A DNA stretch of 7,066 bases from a virus (Duplodnaviria; Heunggongvirae; Uroviricota; Caudoviricetes): the IMG/VR virus record IMGVR_UViG_2531839200_000011, positions 1-7,066 of that record. One strand, 5' to 3'. The position numbers and the translations under genes are program-made. The stretch's first letter is position 1. Each line of letters begins with the position of its first letter. The notes under the pieces were generated by a model. The model did no database searches and was not told where the DNA came from. It saw only the letters and a program-made list of their open reading frames with translations. Below are positions 265-6,764 of the stretch, piece by piece.

Positions 265-497
265 CTCAGGCTGAAATAGGTCGTTATATGGGGGTCGCTC
301 AACAGACGGTTTGGCAATGGTTTAGCTTTGGCGTTCCCCCAAAGCAGGTAATTCCGTTATGCCAACTAATGAAGTGGGAAGTTACCCCGCATGAAATCCG
401 CCCAGATATTTATCCTAACCCAACCGACGGTTTACCTGTTGGATGTAAGGTTAACACATCAAATGCGCCGGAGTTGATTCATGAAAATCAAGCATGA
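265..497 (+). pseudogene. 5'-truncated cro/ydaS-type HTH regulator gene, interrupted by the IS insertion
   Basis: The frame is open from the IS junction to the TGA at 495-497 and reads ...QAEIGRYMGVAQQTVWQWFSFGVPPKQVIPLCQLMKWEVTPHEIRPDIYPNP.... This has the recognition-helix signature (GVxQQxVxQW) and the C-terminal 'RPD' motif of YdaS/Cro-like proteins. The N-terminal helices and promoter are missing. The ATG at 288 is probably an internal Met, not the native start. Confidence 0.6.
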
Positions 498-906
498 ACA
501 CATCCGCATGGCGATGAATGCCTGGGCGCATCCGGACGGCGAAAAAGTACCGGCTGCGAAAATTACCAAAGCGTATTTCGAGCTGGGAATGACGTTCCCG
601 GAACTGTATGACGACAGCCATCCGGAAGCCATGGCTCGCAATACTCAGAAAATTTTCCGCTGGGTGGAGAAAGACACTCCTGATGCGGTTAAAAAAATTC
701 AGGCGTTGTTACCAGCGATCGAAAAAGCGATGCCGCCTCCGCTGGTGGCCCGAATGCGCAGCCACAGTTCCGCTTATTTTCGGGAGTTGGTAGAGACGAA
801 GGAACGGCTGGTGAAAGATATTGATGATTTCGTTGCATCAGCGATCGTTCTGTTCGATCAGATGAATCGTGGTGGCCCGGCAGGAAACACTCTGGCTGTG
901 CATTAA
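481..906 (+). CDS. ydaT: YdaT-family protein (lambdoid prophage early gene; putative CII-like/toxin-like protein)
   Basis: 141-aa ORF beginning MKIKHEHI and ending ...VH, the characteristic start of Rac-type YdaT as I recall it. GGAG lies 8 nt upstream. The start overlaps the 3' end of the cro-like remnant, consistent with an operon. Confidence 0.7.
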   Translation: MKIKHEHIRMAMNAWAHPDGEKVPAAKITKAYFELGMTFPELYDDSHPEAMARNTQKIFRWVEKDTPDAVKKIQALLPAIEKAMPPPLVARMRSHSSAYFRELVETKERLVKDIDDFVASAIVLFDQMNRGGPAGNTLAVH

Positions 907-4283: not shown

Positions 4284-4298
4284 TTGCCGGAGGCGCTT

Positions 4299-4712
4299 AT
4301 GGCAAAAGTATTTACACAGGAAGAGCGGGAAAAAATTAAAGGGCAGGTTGTTGAGCTAGTACGCCGGAGTGGGCGCGAGACGTTACGGCAACTGGAAGCC
4401 AAGACAGGTGCGACAAGATATCTGATGAGCGTTCTTGCCAGAGAGCTGGTTGCCAGTGGCGATGTATACAACTCTGGTTACGGGTTATTCCCATCTGAAC
4501 AGGCTCGTAAGGACTGGCAAAACGCCCGCAAAAAACTATCGAGGGCAAAACTGAAGAAACCGGTTGTGGTTGATCCTGACCTTATCTGGTCATTACCAGA
4601 CGGAGAAATACGCCGCTATGACAGGCAATTGAACATAATTTGTAGTGAGTGCCGTAACAGTGAAGTGATGCAGCGAGTTTTGATATTTTACACAGGAGTA
4701 ATGATGGAATAG
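4299..4712 (+). CDS. Hypothetical prophage protein (137 aa) with one winged-helix-like module related to those in the upstream gene
   Basis: ATG at 4299 with GGAGG 6 nt upstream, 15 nt after the previous stop. The segment VVELVRRSGRETLRQLEAKTGATRYLMSVLARELVASGDV follows the same pattern as the upstream modules. The track start at 4284 would overlap the upstream stop. Confidence 0.65.
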   Translation: MAKVFTQEEREKIKGQVVELVRRSGRETLRQLEAKTGATRYLMSVLARELVASGDVYNSGYGLFPSEQARKDWQNARKKLSRAKLKKPVVVDPDLIWSLPDGEIRRYDRQLNIICSECRNSEVMQRVLIFYTGVMME

Positions 4713-6060
4713 TGAAAATAACATGAAACCTTTGGATTCTGGTGTTTCAGTGGATGGGAAAAGAGCAGATACATAGAAAATGAATAGCAATAATTCACAG
4801 TCTGGATGTTGTTTGTATGCTTATAAAATGATCCTAGTATGCATTGCCGGAGTTGAATCAGCTCCAATGAAGAAACTGAGAGGAGTATTTAGAAGATAGC
4901 TAAATGGATGTAATTATTAGTATCTAAAAAATAGTATTTTTGAAATGGGTCTAAGAACACAACAATGTACAAATGAGAAGTTATCTTTTAATATGTTCAA
5001 AGACCCATTAGGATTGATATCAGTTATGTTAGCTAGATTGATAAAGTGATTACATATTTTCTGTTATATGCTGAAATGAATAATGCTATTCCAGAGTGCA
5101 GCAGAGAAAGTCTCCTGATGATTGAGCTCTGGAAATTGTACAATAGAAAAATTACTGTATTTTTCTGTCAAAATATTTCTCAAAACAGATTCCGCTTTGA
5201 TGGCTTCAGGATATAAAGATGCGGAGTAATCAAGGCTAAGATTTCCGTTAAGCAAGCATATACTTTTAGTGTGCTTTGATTCTGATATATCATCTTTAAT
5301 TATCTTGATGATTCTTTCATTCTGCCATAGAAGTGATGGTGCAGATATATAATAATAGTTAAAGCATGAATTATTTTTTAAGCAATCAAGCACAAAAATA
5401 GCACCTAGCGAGTGCCCCCATATACCGATTCTGGAACTGTTCGGAGCAATAGTACTAACCCATGGCATGATCTGAGTTAGTAATAATTCTCGGAAAGACT
5501 GGCTTCCTCCACCAGTAAAGTAGATCCATGCTGGTTTAGAGTTATCAACAATAGCATTTTCACCATCAGGAGTATAATCGTAAGCACGGCGATGAATGCT
5601 AAGGTTATTCCAAGATTCATAACCAAGTGTAACTAACACTGGTGGATTGGGTAGTGCATCAATAACAGGCAGAATATCAGAAATGTAATTGTTGGCACTA
5701 TTCCCATCAAGTATATAAAGAGTTGCATTATTTTTTTTAATGTTTTTTGGAGTAAAAATACATATTTTATATTTGGTGTCATGGTTAATTGAGTTAAATA
5801 TGCGTGTTTGACAATGAATGTCCATATGTTTAGTCATGCGTTCTCCCCATGAGCATTAAAGGATGCTTAAGATATGCTATGTCACTGATAAAAAATTTGT
5901 TGTGTGTGTTTAGTTATTTTATCTACCTCCATTATGATTTAAGACTGATATATGTTATCAGCAAAGGTACATCGTTATTATTTTACCTGTCAATACATTT
6001 GATATTGATTATCGTTTACATCGCTTGCTTAGGAAATTGAAGGCAGGTAACTATCATGTC
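4713..6060. other. AT-rich island (moron-like cargo insertion) between the phage replication module and the hok locus
   Basis: Composition shifts sharply to AT-rich sequence across this interval. It holds a single convincing gene, on the opposite strand to all flanking phage genes, flanked by non-coding AT-rich DNA. Confidence 0.7.
5064..5837 (-). CDS. Alpha/beta-hydrolase, esterase family (PF00756-like 'putative esterase'; Fes/IroE/esterase-D-like fold), encoded in an AT-rich island
   Basis: 257-aa ORF on the minus strand; on that strand the start is preceded by GGGGAGAACGC, i.e. a GGAG about 5 nt upstream. Nucleophile elbow G-H-S-L-G (IGIWGHSLGA), an upstream YILDGN motif and a C-terminal His (ELNHQETF) fit a Ser-Asp-His esterase. 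No obvious N-terminal signal peptide. G+C looks roughly one-third by eye versus above 50% in flanking phage genes. Confidence 0.75.
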   Translation of the reverse strand: MTKHMDIHCQTRIFNSINHDTKYKICIFTPKNIKKNNATLYILDGNSANNYISDILPVIDALPNPPVLVTLGYESWNNLSIHRRAYDYTPDGENAIVDNSKPAWIYFTGGGSQSFRELLLTQIMPWVSTIAPNSSRIGIWGHSLGAIFVLDCLKNNSCFNYYYISAPSLLWQNERIIKIIKDDISESKHTKSICLLNGNLSLDYSASLYPEAIKAESVLRNILTEKYSNFSIVQFPELNHQETFSAALWNSIIHFSI

Positions 6061-6319
6061 AATGAACTAACCCACAGTCTAACGTACTTCTTTCCCCAAT
6101 CACCAACAACCAAATTCCTGTTATCACCACTGGGATTTTGGCGCAACTTCATGGTGCAGAGGTAAATAGCATCAAGCAAAATCTCTTTTTCCGTTGTTGT
6201 CCTTATGGGACGTCTGTCTTTCTGACCGATTTCATATTGGCGAGGTAATGGGAAGTTAAGTAGAATAGCTGCGGGTGCTTGAGGCTATCTGCCTCGGGCA
6301 TGAACACCAACGGCAGATA

Positions 6320-6400
6320 GAGAAAAGCCCCAGTTAACATTACGCGTCCTGCAAGACGCCTAACATTAATCTGAGGCTCAATCTATGAACGGCAAATCTA
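6320..6400 (-). ncRNA. sok: Putative Sok-like antisense RNA region (approximate), antisense to the hok leader / upstream ORF start
   Basis: Inferred from hok/sok architecture. On the minus strand near 6390-6430 there is TTGCCT, a 17-bp spacer, then TAACCT as a weak promoter-like pair. A stem-loop (atctgcc...ggcagat, 6286-6319) lies in the leader. The boundaries are not determined. Confidence 0.3.
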
Positions 6401-6441
6401 GGTTAGCCTCTTACGTGCCGAAAGGCAAGGAGAAGCAGGCT

Positions 6442-6597
6442 ATGAAGCAGCAAAAGGCGATGTTAATCGCCCTGATCGTCATCTGTTTAACCGTCATAGT
6501 GACGGCACTGGTAACGAGGAAAGACCTCTGCGAGGTACGAGTCCGAACCGGCCAGACGGAGGTCGCTGTCTTCACAGCTTACGAACCTGAGGAGTAA
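6442..6597 (+). CDS. hok: Hok/Gef-family type I toxin (51 aa membrane peptide), near-identical to RelF/HokD as recalled
   Basis: The translation MKQQKAMLIALIVICLTVIVTALVTRKDLCEVRVRTGQTEVAVFTAYEPEE is a canonical Hok-family sequence. An in-frame upstream ATG at 6385 gives the 70-aa track ORF, which may be the leader or a Mok-like reading frame. Confidence 0.9.
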   Translation: MKQQKAMLIALIVICLTVIVTALVTRKDLCEVRVRTGQTEVAVFTAYEPEE

Positions 6598-6664
6598 GAG
6601 ACCTGGCGGGGGAGAAATCCCTCGCCACCTCTGATGAATCAGGCATCCTCAACGCACCCGCACT

Positions 6665-6692
6665 TAACCCGCTTCGGCGGGTTTTGTTTTTT
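6665..6692 (+). terminator. Rho-independent terminator of the hok transcript
   Basis: aacccgc-ttcg-gcgggtt hairpin followed by the T-run ttttgtttttt, about 70 nt after the hok stop. Confidence 0.8.
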
Positions 6693-6764
6693 CCTGGCAT
6701 TCTGGTTTACAATTCGCACGCCAGCCTGAACAACTGGCACCTGCTGCGCCAGCAGAGAAAACAG

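What the first reader, a model, noticed from the sequence alone, without database searches (positions are those of the whole stretch)
6235..6692. Complete hok/sok-type type I toxin locus with a 5'-3' long-range pairing element, adjacent to the AT-rich island
The Hok peptide is intact. The candidate 5' leader segment tggcgagg (6238-6245) is complementary to cctcgcca (6620-6627) in the 3' UTR just before the terminator. That pairing is the arrangement expected for the fold-back inhibition and translational-activator elements that keep full-length hok mRNA inert until 3' processing. A leader stem-loop (6286-6319) and an in-frame upstream ORF start (6385) are present. The toxin looks functional and regulated, and it sits directly beside the cargo island.
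Basis: partly seen in the sequence, partly recalled or inferred. Interest (0 to 1): 0.4.

Follow-up and report, generated by a model that had tools for sequence, protein, structure and literature searches.

The report
Known prophage hok/sok toxin–antitoxin locus

Summary
The locus is real and complete. It has an intact 51-aa Hok (6442-6597, Pfam HOK_GEF E=1.5e-22), an in-frame mok ORF (6385-6597), an antisense Sok gene (about 6393 to 6321, minus strand) and a terminator (6666-6683). It is 100% identical to E. coli O157:H7 prophage DNA that RefSeq annotates as hokD. [quoted passage not shown]

Its 5' half overlaps the -35 hexamer of the hok promoter, upstream of the inferred transcript start at about 6273. 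Its 3' half is one arm of a conserved local GNRA hairpin (6604-6627). The pairing is absent from all 45 other intact homologous loci.

The true tac/fbi helix is 6273-6284 with 6647-6659. It appears in the minimum-energy fold of 46/46 intact loci and is supported by compensatory changes. Removing the 3' end in silico reproduces the published R1 refolding (tac/ucb, SDmok/dcb).

Verdict: already known, low interest. Interpretation partly supported, with corrected coordinates.

The parts
6237..6266 (+). hok promoter: -35 TTGGCG (6237-6242), 18-nt spacer, -10 TAGAAT (6261-6266).
   Evidence: Promoter scan. The -10 hexamer is nearly invariant across 53 loci, while sequence upstream of it is not alignable (A2). 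It has not been mapped experimentally here.
6273..6284 (+). tac (translational activator element), the 5' end of hok mRNA: GGGUGCUUGAGG. It pairs with fbi in full-length mRNA, with ucb in 3'-truncated mRNA, and with 6291-6301 in the nascent transcript (metastable hairpin).
   Evidence: The Rfam RF01794 match starts at 6273. The sequence is homologous to the R1 +1 GGCGCUU, where G4/C5/T6 are described as tac-stem nucleotides (PMC9841398).
6285..6320 (+). Leader (tac-stem) hairpin: UAUCUGCC...GGCAGAUA.
   Evidence: Present in the full-length and truncated MFE folds. Part of the Rfam sok-model consensus structure.
6325..6331 (+). ucb (anti-SD): AAGCCCC. Pairs with SDmok in the closed form and with tac in the open form.
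   Evidence: MFE folds of the full-length versus truncated RNA. Role as described for R1 (PMC9841398).
6373..6376 (+). mok Shine-Dalgarno sequence GAGG, 8 nt upstream of the mok ATG.
   Evidence: Sequence. Sequestered by 6326-6331 in the full-length fold and paired with dcb in the truncated fold.
6385..6597 (+). mok ORF (70 aa), in frame with hok and ending at the same stop codon.
   Evidence: ORF list. Same arrangement as the annotated mokW of 933W.
6321..6393 (-). Sok antisense RNA (about 71-74 nt): a 5' single-stranded tail of about 14 nt covering the mok start codon, then a long hairpin, then UUUUCU.
   Evidence: Position transferred from the annotated sokW of 933W through alignment A1. 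The minus-strand fold gives -33 kcal/mol. Expression was not tested here.
6400..6428 (-). Sok promoter: -35 TTGCCT (6428 to 6423), 17-nt spacer, -10 TAACCT (6405 to 6400).
   Evidence: The 6399-6536 stretch is identical to 933W (A1), whose sokW promoter was shown functional by mutation (PMC8621323). The hexamers are weak (4/6 and 3/6 matches) and the consensus scan missed them.
6405..6410 (+). dcb (downstream complementary box): AGCCUC. Pairs with the SDmok region in the truncated mRNA to form the Sok target hairpin.
   Evidence: Truncated-mRNA MFE folds. PMC9841398 places dcb within the Sok promoter in R1.
6442..6597 (+). hok toxin CDS (51 aa: MKQQKAMLIALIVICLTVIVTALVTRKDLCEVRVRTGQTEVAVFTAYEPEE), preceded by SD AAGGAG (6427-6432).
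   Evidence: Pfam PF01848, E=1.5e-22, profile positions 1-42 of 42. RefSeq annotates it as hokD, WP_000813263.1. It matches HokD-type copies at 50/51 residues and HokW at 46/51.
6604..6627 (+). Conserved 3'-UTR hairpin UGGCGGGGGA-GAAA-UCCCUCGCCA. It is inferred to be the protective terminal stem-loop of the processed mRNA.
   Evidence: Folds. Conserved as GGCGGGG-NNNN-CCCCGCC in A2. The role is inferred from R1, where mutations in the last stem-loop of the truncated mRNA cause loss of function (PMC9841398).
6647..6659 (+). fbi (fold-back inhibitory element): CCUCAACGCACCC. Pairs with tac, with one bulged C at 6653.
   Evidence: RNAduplex gives -21.5 kcal/mol. The helix appears in the MFE fold of 46/46 intact loci. 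Compensatory changes U-A to C-G and G-C to A-U.
6666..6692 (+). Intrinsic terminator of hok mRNA: AACCCGC-UUCG-GCGGGUU followed by UUGUUUUUU.
   Evidence: Terminator scan and folds.

Best explanation
The interval holds a complete hok/mok/sok type I toxin-antitoxin module carried by a lambdoid prophage of E. coli O157:H7. The proposed mechanism follows; every step is inferred from sequence, folding and homology, and none is shown experimentally for this copy.

1. A weak constitutive promoter (-10 TAGAAT, 6261-6266) starts a roughly 418-nt hok mRNA at about 6273.
2. During transcription, the 5' tac sequence is held in a metastable hairpin with 6291-6301.
3. In the finished transcript, tac (6273-6284) pairs with fbi (6647-6659) just upstream of the terminator. 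The RNA is locked in a closed form in which ucb (6325-6331) sequesters the mok Shine-Dalgarno sequence (6373-6376).
4. Slow 3'-exonucleolytic trimming removes the terminator and fbi, stopping at the stable GNRA hairpin region (6604-6627).
5. tac then switches to ucb. SDmok pairs with dcb (6405-6410) to form the target hairpin. The mRNA becomes both translatable (mok, with hok coupled to it) and accessible to Sok.
6. Sok is an unstable antisense RNA of about 72 nt (6393 to 6321). Its 5' tail covers the mok start. Binding leads to RNase III cleavage of the duplex.
7. When Sok supply stops (loss or induction of the prophage, or transcription shut-off), the pool of processed hok mRNA is translated and the membrane toxin Hok kills or lyses the cell.
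For: Identity of the DNA:
- 100% identical to O157:H7 chromosomes, where the CDS is annotated hokD.
- 93% identical to hokW/mokW/sokW of 933W.
- Matches are present in 4732 of 5426 complete E. coli genomes.

Family assignment:
- Pfam HOK_GEF E=1.5e-22.
- Rfam RF01794 105.6 bits against a gathering score of 59.

tac/fbi helix:
- The full-length fold has the helix, with an overall z-score of -7.9.
- It is present in the MFE fold of 46/46 intact loci from Escherichia, Kluyvera, Citrobacter, Photorhabdus, Pantoea, Erwinia and IncF plasmids.
- There are 22 distinct tac/fbi classes. At position 4 the pairs are U-A (11), C-G (8) and U-G (2). At position 12 they are G-C (14), A-U (7) and G-U (1).
- Cognate duplexes are more stable than non-cognate ones: -21.97 against -19.84 kcal/mol, with 0 of 5000 permutations reaching the cognate mean.
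- On A2, 85% of cells are paired against 32-56% when slid, and the covariation score exceeds all 500 shuffles.

Other structural steps:
- In-silico 3' truncation produces the tac/ucb and SDmok/dcb stems.
- The nascent fold gives the metastable tac hairpin.
- Both match the R1 model summarised in PMC9841398.

Sok:
- The Sok fold is a tail, a hairpin and a U tract.
- Its promoter is identical to that of sokW.
- HokW was shown to be toxic and sokW to be its antitoxin. The sokW promoter was validated by mutation, and the effect depends on RNase III and Hfq (PMC8621323).
Against: - Nothing was measured for this copy: no transcript ends, no processing, no toxicity.
- The Sok -10 hexamer (TAACCT) matches the consensus at only 3/6 positions, and the promoter scan missed it.
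- Chromosomal hok/sok loci tested in the past did not mediate post-segregational killing and were suggested to be inactive (reviewed in bioRxiv 10.1101/2025.08.07.668861).
- The transcription start at about 6273 is inferred from promoter geometry and homology, not mapped.
- The biological role in a prophage (maintenance, help with lysis, or defence) is unresolved.
Confidence: 0.9

Rival explanations
1. One reading: the fold-back (tac/fbi) element is tggcgagg 6238-6245 paired with cctcgcca 6620-6627.
For: It is a perfect 8-nt complement. The isolated duplex is -15.2 kcal/mol.
Against: - The 5' octamer overlaps the -35 hexamer and is upstream of the inferred start.
- It is unpaired in the MFE fold of 6235-6692, while 6620-6627 pairs locally.
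- The pairing is absent in 45/45 other intact loci, including E. albertii L009, which keeps TTGGCGAGG upstream but has CTCCCGCC in the hairpin.
- Alignment-wide pairing is 36.9%, equal to shuffles.
- The chance expectation is 0.04-0.14 per locus.
- 933W, a functional homologue, has a 15-nt insertion at this place.
Confidence: 0.02
2. The locus is structurally intact but functionally silent: a decaying or neutral passenger that never releases Hok under natural conditions, as proposed for several chromosomal hok loci.
For: - Chromosomal hokA/B/C loci failed to give post-segregational killing (summarised in bioRxiv 10.1101/2025.08.07.668861).
- Several paralogues in the same collection are visibly decayed or truncated: L011, L012, L023, L048, L049, L052.
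- The genome carries 6-7 copies, so redundancy could relax selection.
Against: - Every regulatory element is intact and in register.
- tac and fbi are invariant or covary among close copies.
- The 93%-identical hokW-sokW is active and affects phage release (PMC8621323).
Confidence: 0.2
3. Same module, different role. Rather than stabilising the prophage, it acts at induction to speed lysis and phage release (as reported for hokW-sokW), or as an abortive-infection defence against other phages.
For: - hokW-sokW deletion halves Sp5 release and delays growth arrest after mitomycin C (PMC8621323).
- The locus lies between the replication genes and the nin/Q region, on the same strand as the early-right genes.
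Against: There are no data for this prophage. Many O157 prophages are defective, so a release function may be moot. The bioRxiv survey found no enrichment of hok next to defence systems.
Confidence: 0.4

Closest known systems
hokW-mokW-sokW of Stx2 phage 933W / Sakai prophage Sp5 (AF125520; PMC8621323)
   Same: 93% nucleotide identity over 6254-6669. Same order of promoter, tac, ucb, SDmok, mok, Sok promoter, hok, 3' hairpin and fbi. The Sok promoter and the whole 6399-6536 stretch are identical. Hok matches at 46/51 residues. Both sit in lambdoid prophages of O157:H7.
   Different: - Different genomic position within the phage. In 933W the locus is near the right end, next to a different set of genes; here it lies between the replication genes and the DUF968/RusA/Q region.
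- 6 of 14 nt differ in the target of the Sok 5' tail (6380-6393).
- The -35 region differs (15-nt indel).
- 933W homology ends just after fbi, so it lacks this terminator hairpin at the same place.
hok/sok (parB) of plasmid R1 and IncF relatives
   Same: Same element set and the same three alternative pairings (tac/fbi, tac/ucb, ucb/SDmok versus SDmok/dcb, plus the metastable 5' hairpin), as described in PMC9841398. Compensatory changes link the two: U4-A here corresponds to C-G in the IncF copies L005 and L008.
   Different: Hok proteins are only about 44% identical (the figure given for HokW versus R1 Hok in PMC8621323). In the IncF relative fetched here (L005), mok is annotated in a different frame (DUF5431), whereas here mok is in frame with hok. 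The R1 system is plasmid-borne, not prophage-borne.
hokD (relF) of E. coli K-12 Qin prophage type (rows L012 and L048; hits H22-H24)
   Same: Hok matches at 50/51 residues. The 3' UTR, fbi and terminator are the same. RefSeq gives this window's gene the same name, hokD.
   Different: K-12-type copies match only from 6428 onward. They lack the promoter, tac, ucb, the mok start and Sok. The window copy is the complete form.
hokC/mokC (gef) chromosomal locus
   Same: About 75% nucleotide identity. mok is in frame. Same tac sequence, and fbi has G-U wobble variants.
   Different: It is a chromosomal core-genome locus next to dnaJ, not in a prophage. Hok matches at 40/51 residues.

Membership tests
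[quoted passage not shown] | Small hydrophobic Hok/Gef-family toxin ORF | tested here: met
   Pfam PF01848, E=1.5e-22, covering profile positions 1-42 of 42. 51 aa with no frameshift or premature stop.
[quoted passage not shown] | Overlapping mok reading frame with its own SD upstream of hok | tested here: met
   ATG at 6385 is preceded by GAGG at 6373-6376. The 70-codon ORF ends at the hok stop. Same as the annotated mokW. Translational coupling itself is not testable with these tools.
[quoted passage not shown] | cis-encoded antisense Sok RNA gene opposite the mok translation-initiation region (promoter, 5' tail, terminator hairpin) | tested here: met
   On the minus strand: -35 TTGCCT, 17 nt, -10 TAACCT. 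The predicted RNA (6393 to 6321) folds as a 14-nt tail, a long hairpin and UUUU. It is collinear with the annotated sokW, and its promoter is identical to sokW's. Expression was not tested.
[quoted passage not shown] | Long-range tac/fbi pairing between the mRNA 5' end and the 3' UTR | tested here: met
6273-6284 pairs with 6647-6659 in the MFE fold. Found in 46/46 intact loci.
[quoted passage not shown] | Alternative pairings that switch on 3' processing (ucb/SDmok closed; tac/ucb plus SDmok/dcb open) and a metastable 5' hairpin | tested here: met
   Predicted MFE folds of the full-length, 3'-truncated and nascent RNAs reproduce each state. These are predictions only.
[quoted passage not shown] | Leader RNA matches the curated covariance model (Rfam RF01794) above its gathering score | tested here: met
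   105.6 bits against a gathering score of 59, E=6.6e-24, model positions 1-157 of 157, + strand 6273-6447.
[quoted passage not shown] | Slow 3' exonucleolytic processing of a stable mRNA; unstable Sok; RNase III cleavage of the duplex; killing when Sok decays | not testable with these tools
   Requires Northern blots or RNA-seq, a rifampicin chase and toxicity assays. Shown for R1 (PMC9841398 and the references in it) and partly for hokW-sokW (PMC8621323).

The most novel reading that the evidence does not exclude
The most variable stretch of the locus is the 14-19 nt that encode both the Sok 5' recognition tail and its target around the mok start codon (6380-6398).
- 64% of its columns vary among E. 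coli prophage copies, and the same fraction among Photorhabdus copies.
- Co-resident copies in one genome differ at 4-8 of about 14 positions.
- This copy's version (AACGGCAAATC after the ATG) differs from every other locus sampled.

This could reflect selection for mutually orthogonal Sok/hok pairs, so that the 6-7 prophage-borne copies in an O157 genome cannot cross-protect each other and each prophage keeps its own addiction or lysis switch. The alternative is neutral drift: the segment is unpaired, poorly constrained, and complements itself automatically because both RNAs are read from the same DNA.
Probability: 0.3. Interest if true: 0.3.

Novelty: already known. Interest (0 to 1): 0.1.

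Why it matters
It matters little beyond correct annotation. The module is a textbook system, and this exact sequence is already in hundreds of O157:H7 genomes, annotated as hokD. Three points are practically useful.
- The coordinates of the regulatory RNA elements are now correct. RefSeq annotates only the Hok CDS, not mok, Sok, tac or fbi.
- An 8-mer complement picked by eye can be a promoter hexamer pairing by chance with one arm of a local hairpin.
- The Rfam 'sok' model reports the sense-strand leader, so its strand must not be read as the Sok gene.

A possible open point is whether the hypervariable Sok-tail segment insulates the many co-resident prophage copies from each other.

Tried and rejected
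Rejected by folding, by comparison with 45 loci, by alignment counts and by the chance estimate.
- Consensus promoter scan for Sok on the minus strand. It found nothing because the hexamers match only 4/6 and 3/6. The promoter was placed instead by homology to the annotated sokW.
- Terminator scan for Sok. The Sok hairpin was not reported; why the scan missed it was not determined. It was shown by folding instead.
- Rfam hit to isrK at 6606-6687. At 27.1 bits it is below the gathering score of 50. It matches a hairpin followed by a terminator, which may be a generic arrangement. It was not pursued. The ceN48 and CRISPR-DR57 hits (E about 0.4-0.5) were dismissed as chance.
- Plasmid hits L006 and L007. 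These are only leader fragments without hok, so they were left out of the comparative set.
- Seven loci were excluded from the tac/fbi statistics but kept in the A2 counts: L011, L012, L023, L032, L048, L049 and L052. They have replaced or decayed leaders or 3' ends.
- A single register for tac positions 7-12 on A2 under-counts pairing. Photorhabdus and IncF copies lack the bulged C and are shifted by one column. The per-locus RNAduplex tabulation is the cleaner count.
- The large protein-database, structure-prediction and metagenome tools were not used. The identification did not need them.

Full report
**What is in the sequence.** The interval 6235-6692 contains an ORF of 70 codons (6385-6597) whose last 51 codons (6442-6597) give MKQQKAMLIALIVICLTVIVTALVTRKDLCEVRVRTGQTEVAVFTAYEPEE. 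This matches Pfam HOK_GEF over the whole profile (E=1.5e-22). Rfam's RF01794 ('sok') matches the + strand at 6273-6447 with 105.6 bits, against a gathering score of 59. A sigma-70-like promoter (TTGGCG 6237-6242, 18 nt, TAGAAT 6261-6266) and an intrinsic terminator (hairpin 6666-6683 plus a T run) bracket the unit on the + strand. GC content falls to 0.29-0.36 over about 4700-6150, immediately upstream.

**Where it comes from.** The 501 bases 6200-6700 are 100% identical to E. coli O157:H7 chromosomes. Similar DNA occurs in 4732 of 5426 complete E. coli genomes, with a median of 2 and up to 10 places per genome. In strain PV15-279 the CDS is annotated 'type I toxin-antitoxin system toxin HokD'. 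It lies in a lambdoid prophage between replication-region genes (a DnaC/IstB-like ATPase, DUF1627, DUF977) and DUF968, RusA and antiterminator Q. Positions 6254-6669 are 93% identical to phage 933W, where mokW, hokW and the antisense sokW were annotated by the depositors. hokW-sokW of the equivalent Sakai prophage Sp5 has been tested experimentally: HokW is toxic, and sokW expressed from its own promoter neutralises it. That effect partly needs RNase III and Hfq. Deleting the locus delays growth arrest and halves phage release after mitomycin C (PMC8621323).

- tggcgagg (6238-6245) is indeed the reverse complement of cctcgcca (6620-6627).
- The 5' octamer overlaps the -35 hexamer of the only promoter-like site. 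It lies 28-35 nt upstream of the inferred start.
- Across 53 homologous loci, conservation begins at the -10 hexamer, and nothing upstream of it is alignable (A2). 933W has 15 extra bases exactly there (A1).
Meanwhile 6620-6627 forms the 3' arm of a local hairpin, UGGCGGGGGA-GAAA-UCCCUCGCCA (6604-6627).
- None of the 45 other intact loci has a complement to its equivalent upstream octamer in the 3' UTR.
- On A2 the proposed pairs form in 36.9% of cells, no better than shuffled (36.4%) or slid (25-53%) controls.
- By dinucleotide shuffling, an 8-mer complement appears in 3.9% of trials for 6235-6272 against the 3' UTR, and in 13.7% for a 130-nt 5' zone.

I conclude that this match is a coincidence between a G-rich -35 flank and one arm of a G/C-rich hairpin.

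**The real 5'-3' element.**
- RNAfold of 6273-6690 (-175.6 kcal/mol, z=-7.9) closes the molecule with GGGUGCUUGAGG (6273-6284) paired to CCUCAACGCACCC (6647-6659), with C6653 bulged.
- I collected 51 loci from GTDB species-representative genomes, plus 933W and plasmid copies, and aligned 53 of them (A2).
- In every one of the 46 loci with an intact leader and 3' UTR, the first 12-13 nt find their best duplex 45-56 nt after the hok stop codon. The MFE fold of the whole RNA contains that closing helix in 46/46.
- There are 22 distinct tac/fbi sequence combinations. Position 4 is U-A in 11, C-G in 8 and U-G in 2. Position 12 is G-C in 14, A-U in 7 and G-U in 1.
- Cognate pairs are more stable than non-cognate ones (-21.97 against -19.84 kcal/mol). 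None of 5000 permutations reached the cognate mean.
- The fixed-column count on A2 gives 85% paired cells, against 32-56% when the partner is slid. It includes the seven decayed loci, and it puts the bulge-less copies out of register for half the helix. It finds 22 cells with changes on both sides, and its covariation score exceeds all 500 shuffles.

**The switch.** The R1 model, as summarised in PMC9841398, has four parts. tac/fbi locks the full-length RNA. ucb then sequesters the mok SD. 3' trimming allows tac/ucb and SDmok/dcb stems to form, which opens the mRNA to ribosomes and to Sok. A metastable hairpin of tac with the sequence just downstream prevents premature translation. The window reproduces each state in silico:
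- In the full-length fold, AGCC.C (6326-6331) pairs with GAGGCU (6373-6378).
- After removal of everything beyond 6640-6650, GGG.GCUU (6273-6280) pairs with AAGCCCC (6325-6331). GAGGCU (6373-6378) pairs with AGCCUC (6405-6410), leaving the mok AUG region near the top of a new hairpin.
- Nascent transcripts up to about 6322 and at 6380 fold tac onto 6291-6301.
- The hairpin region holding 6604-6627 remains as the 3'-terminal structure of the truncated RNA. In R1, mutations that weaken the last stem-loop of the processed mRNA abolish toxicity (PMC9841398).

**Sok.** Transferring the sokW annotation through A1 places Sok at about 6393 to 6323 on the minus strand. The minus strand reads TTGCCT (6428 to 6423), 17 nt, TAACCT (6405 to 6400), with a start about 7 nt further on. 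The predicted RNA has a 14-nt single-stranded 5' tail (GCCGUUCAUAGAUU, covering the mok AUG), then a long hairpin (-33 kcal/mol) followed by UUUUCU. Positions 6399-6536 are identical to 933W, so the promoter is the same as the one validated for sokW (PMC8621323). The Rfam 'sok' hit is on the + strand and spans the hok leader from +1 to the hok AUG. It therefore identifies the locus, not the antisense gene.

**Comparison and membership.** All sequence-level defining features of the hok/sok family were tested and met: the Hok ORF, mok, the Sok gene, tac/fbi, the alternative pairings and the covariance-model score. The kinetic features (slow 3' processing, Sok instability, RNase III cleavage, killing) cannot be tested here. 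Relative to K-12-type hokD, which matches only from 6428 on (H22-24; rows L012 and L048 in A2), this is the complete form. Hok matches HokD-type copies at 50/51 residues and HokW at 46/51.

**Verdict.** This is a known system in a known place. The headline pairing is mis-assigned, and the corrected tac/fbi coordinates are 6273-6284 with 6647-6659. Novelty: already known. Interest: low. The only mildly open observation is the hypervariability of the Sok-tail target segment among co-resident copies. This may be neutral.

Noticed in passing
window 6380-6398 (both strands): The segment encoding the Sok 5' tail and its target (mok codons 1-4 and a few bases upstream), plus the Sok start region, is the most variable part of the leader. 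64% of columns vary among E. coli prophage copies and among Photorhabdus copies, against 0-42% in the other leader segments. Co-resident copies differ at 4-8 of about 14 nt, and the window differs from 933W at 6 of 14 while the flanks are nearly identical. This could reflect specificity insulation or neutral drift.
   Followed up: partly
window 6273-6447 (+): Rfam RF01794, named 'sok antitoxin', matches the sense strand from the hok mRNA 5' end to the hok AUG (157-nt model). It models the hok leader, not the roughly 70-nt antisense RNA, so the strand of a hit is opposite to the Sok gene.
   Followed up: yes
window 6580-6585 (+): UACGAA at the Tyr47 codon of hok is invariant in all 53 loci aligned. 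This is the kind of site reported to be A-to-I edited by TadA (Tyr to Cys) in hokB, and similarly in hokC/D/E (bioRxiv 10.1101/2025.08.07.668861). Editing would create a second Cys that could pair with Cys30.
   Followed up: partly
window 6218 and 6254: Homology with other prophage copies starts at one of two breakpoints (query positions 19 or 55). The second falls between the -35 and -10 hexamers of the hok promoter, so different alleles carry different -35 regions. 933W has 15 extra nt there.
   Followed up: partly
window 6428-6692; loci L012, L048: K-12-type hokD copies (downstream of relBE) match only from the hok SD onward. They retain fbi and the terminator but have no tac, mok start or Sok, so their fbi has no partner.
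   Followed up: partly
window 6606-6687 (+): There is a weak Rfam match to the Salmonella Hfq-binding sRNA IsrK (27.1 bits, gathering score 50, E=0.009). It covers the 3'-UTR hairpin, fbi and the terminator. It may be only a generic hairpin-plus-terminator resemblance.
   Followed up: no
window 6660-6700 vs L001 (933W): Similarity to 933W ends at about 6664, just after fbi. 933W has unrelated sequence where the window has its terminator hairpin, so the 3' end of hokW mRNA must be formed differently.
   Followed up: no
window 4284-4712 (+); L002 2650-5513: The DUF977 gene is intact in the window. In strain PV15-279 it is split by an ISEc8 (IS66-family) insertion. The window therefore comes from a strain or prophage copy without that insertion.
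   Followed up: no
window 5064-5837 (-): The AT-rich island (GC about 0.3) carries a 257-aa ORF that RefSeq annotates as an alpha/beta hydrolase. Its only Pfam hit is a sub-threshold Esterase match (17 bits against a cut-off of 22).
   Followed up: no
window 288-906 (+): Adjacent ORFs match the YdaS (PF15943) and YdaT (PF06254) 'toxin' families at the left end of the window, upstream of the replication genes. This is the Rac-prophage-type cro/cII-position pair.
   Followed up: no
window 6198-6212 (+): A weak terminator-like hairpin (TGTCCTTATGGGACG followed by a T-rich tail) sits just upstream of the hok promoter. It could insulate hok from read-through out of the island.
   Followed up: no
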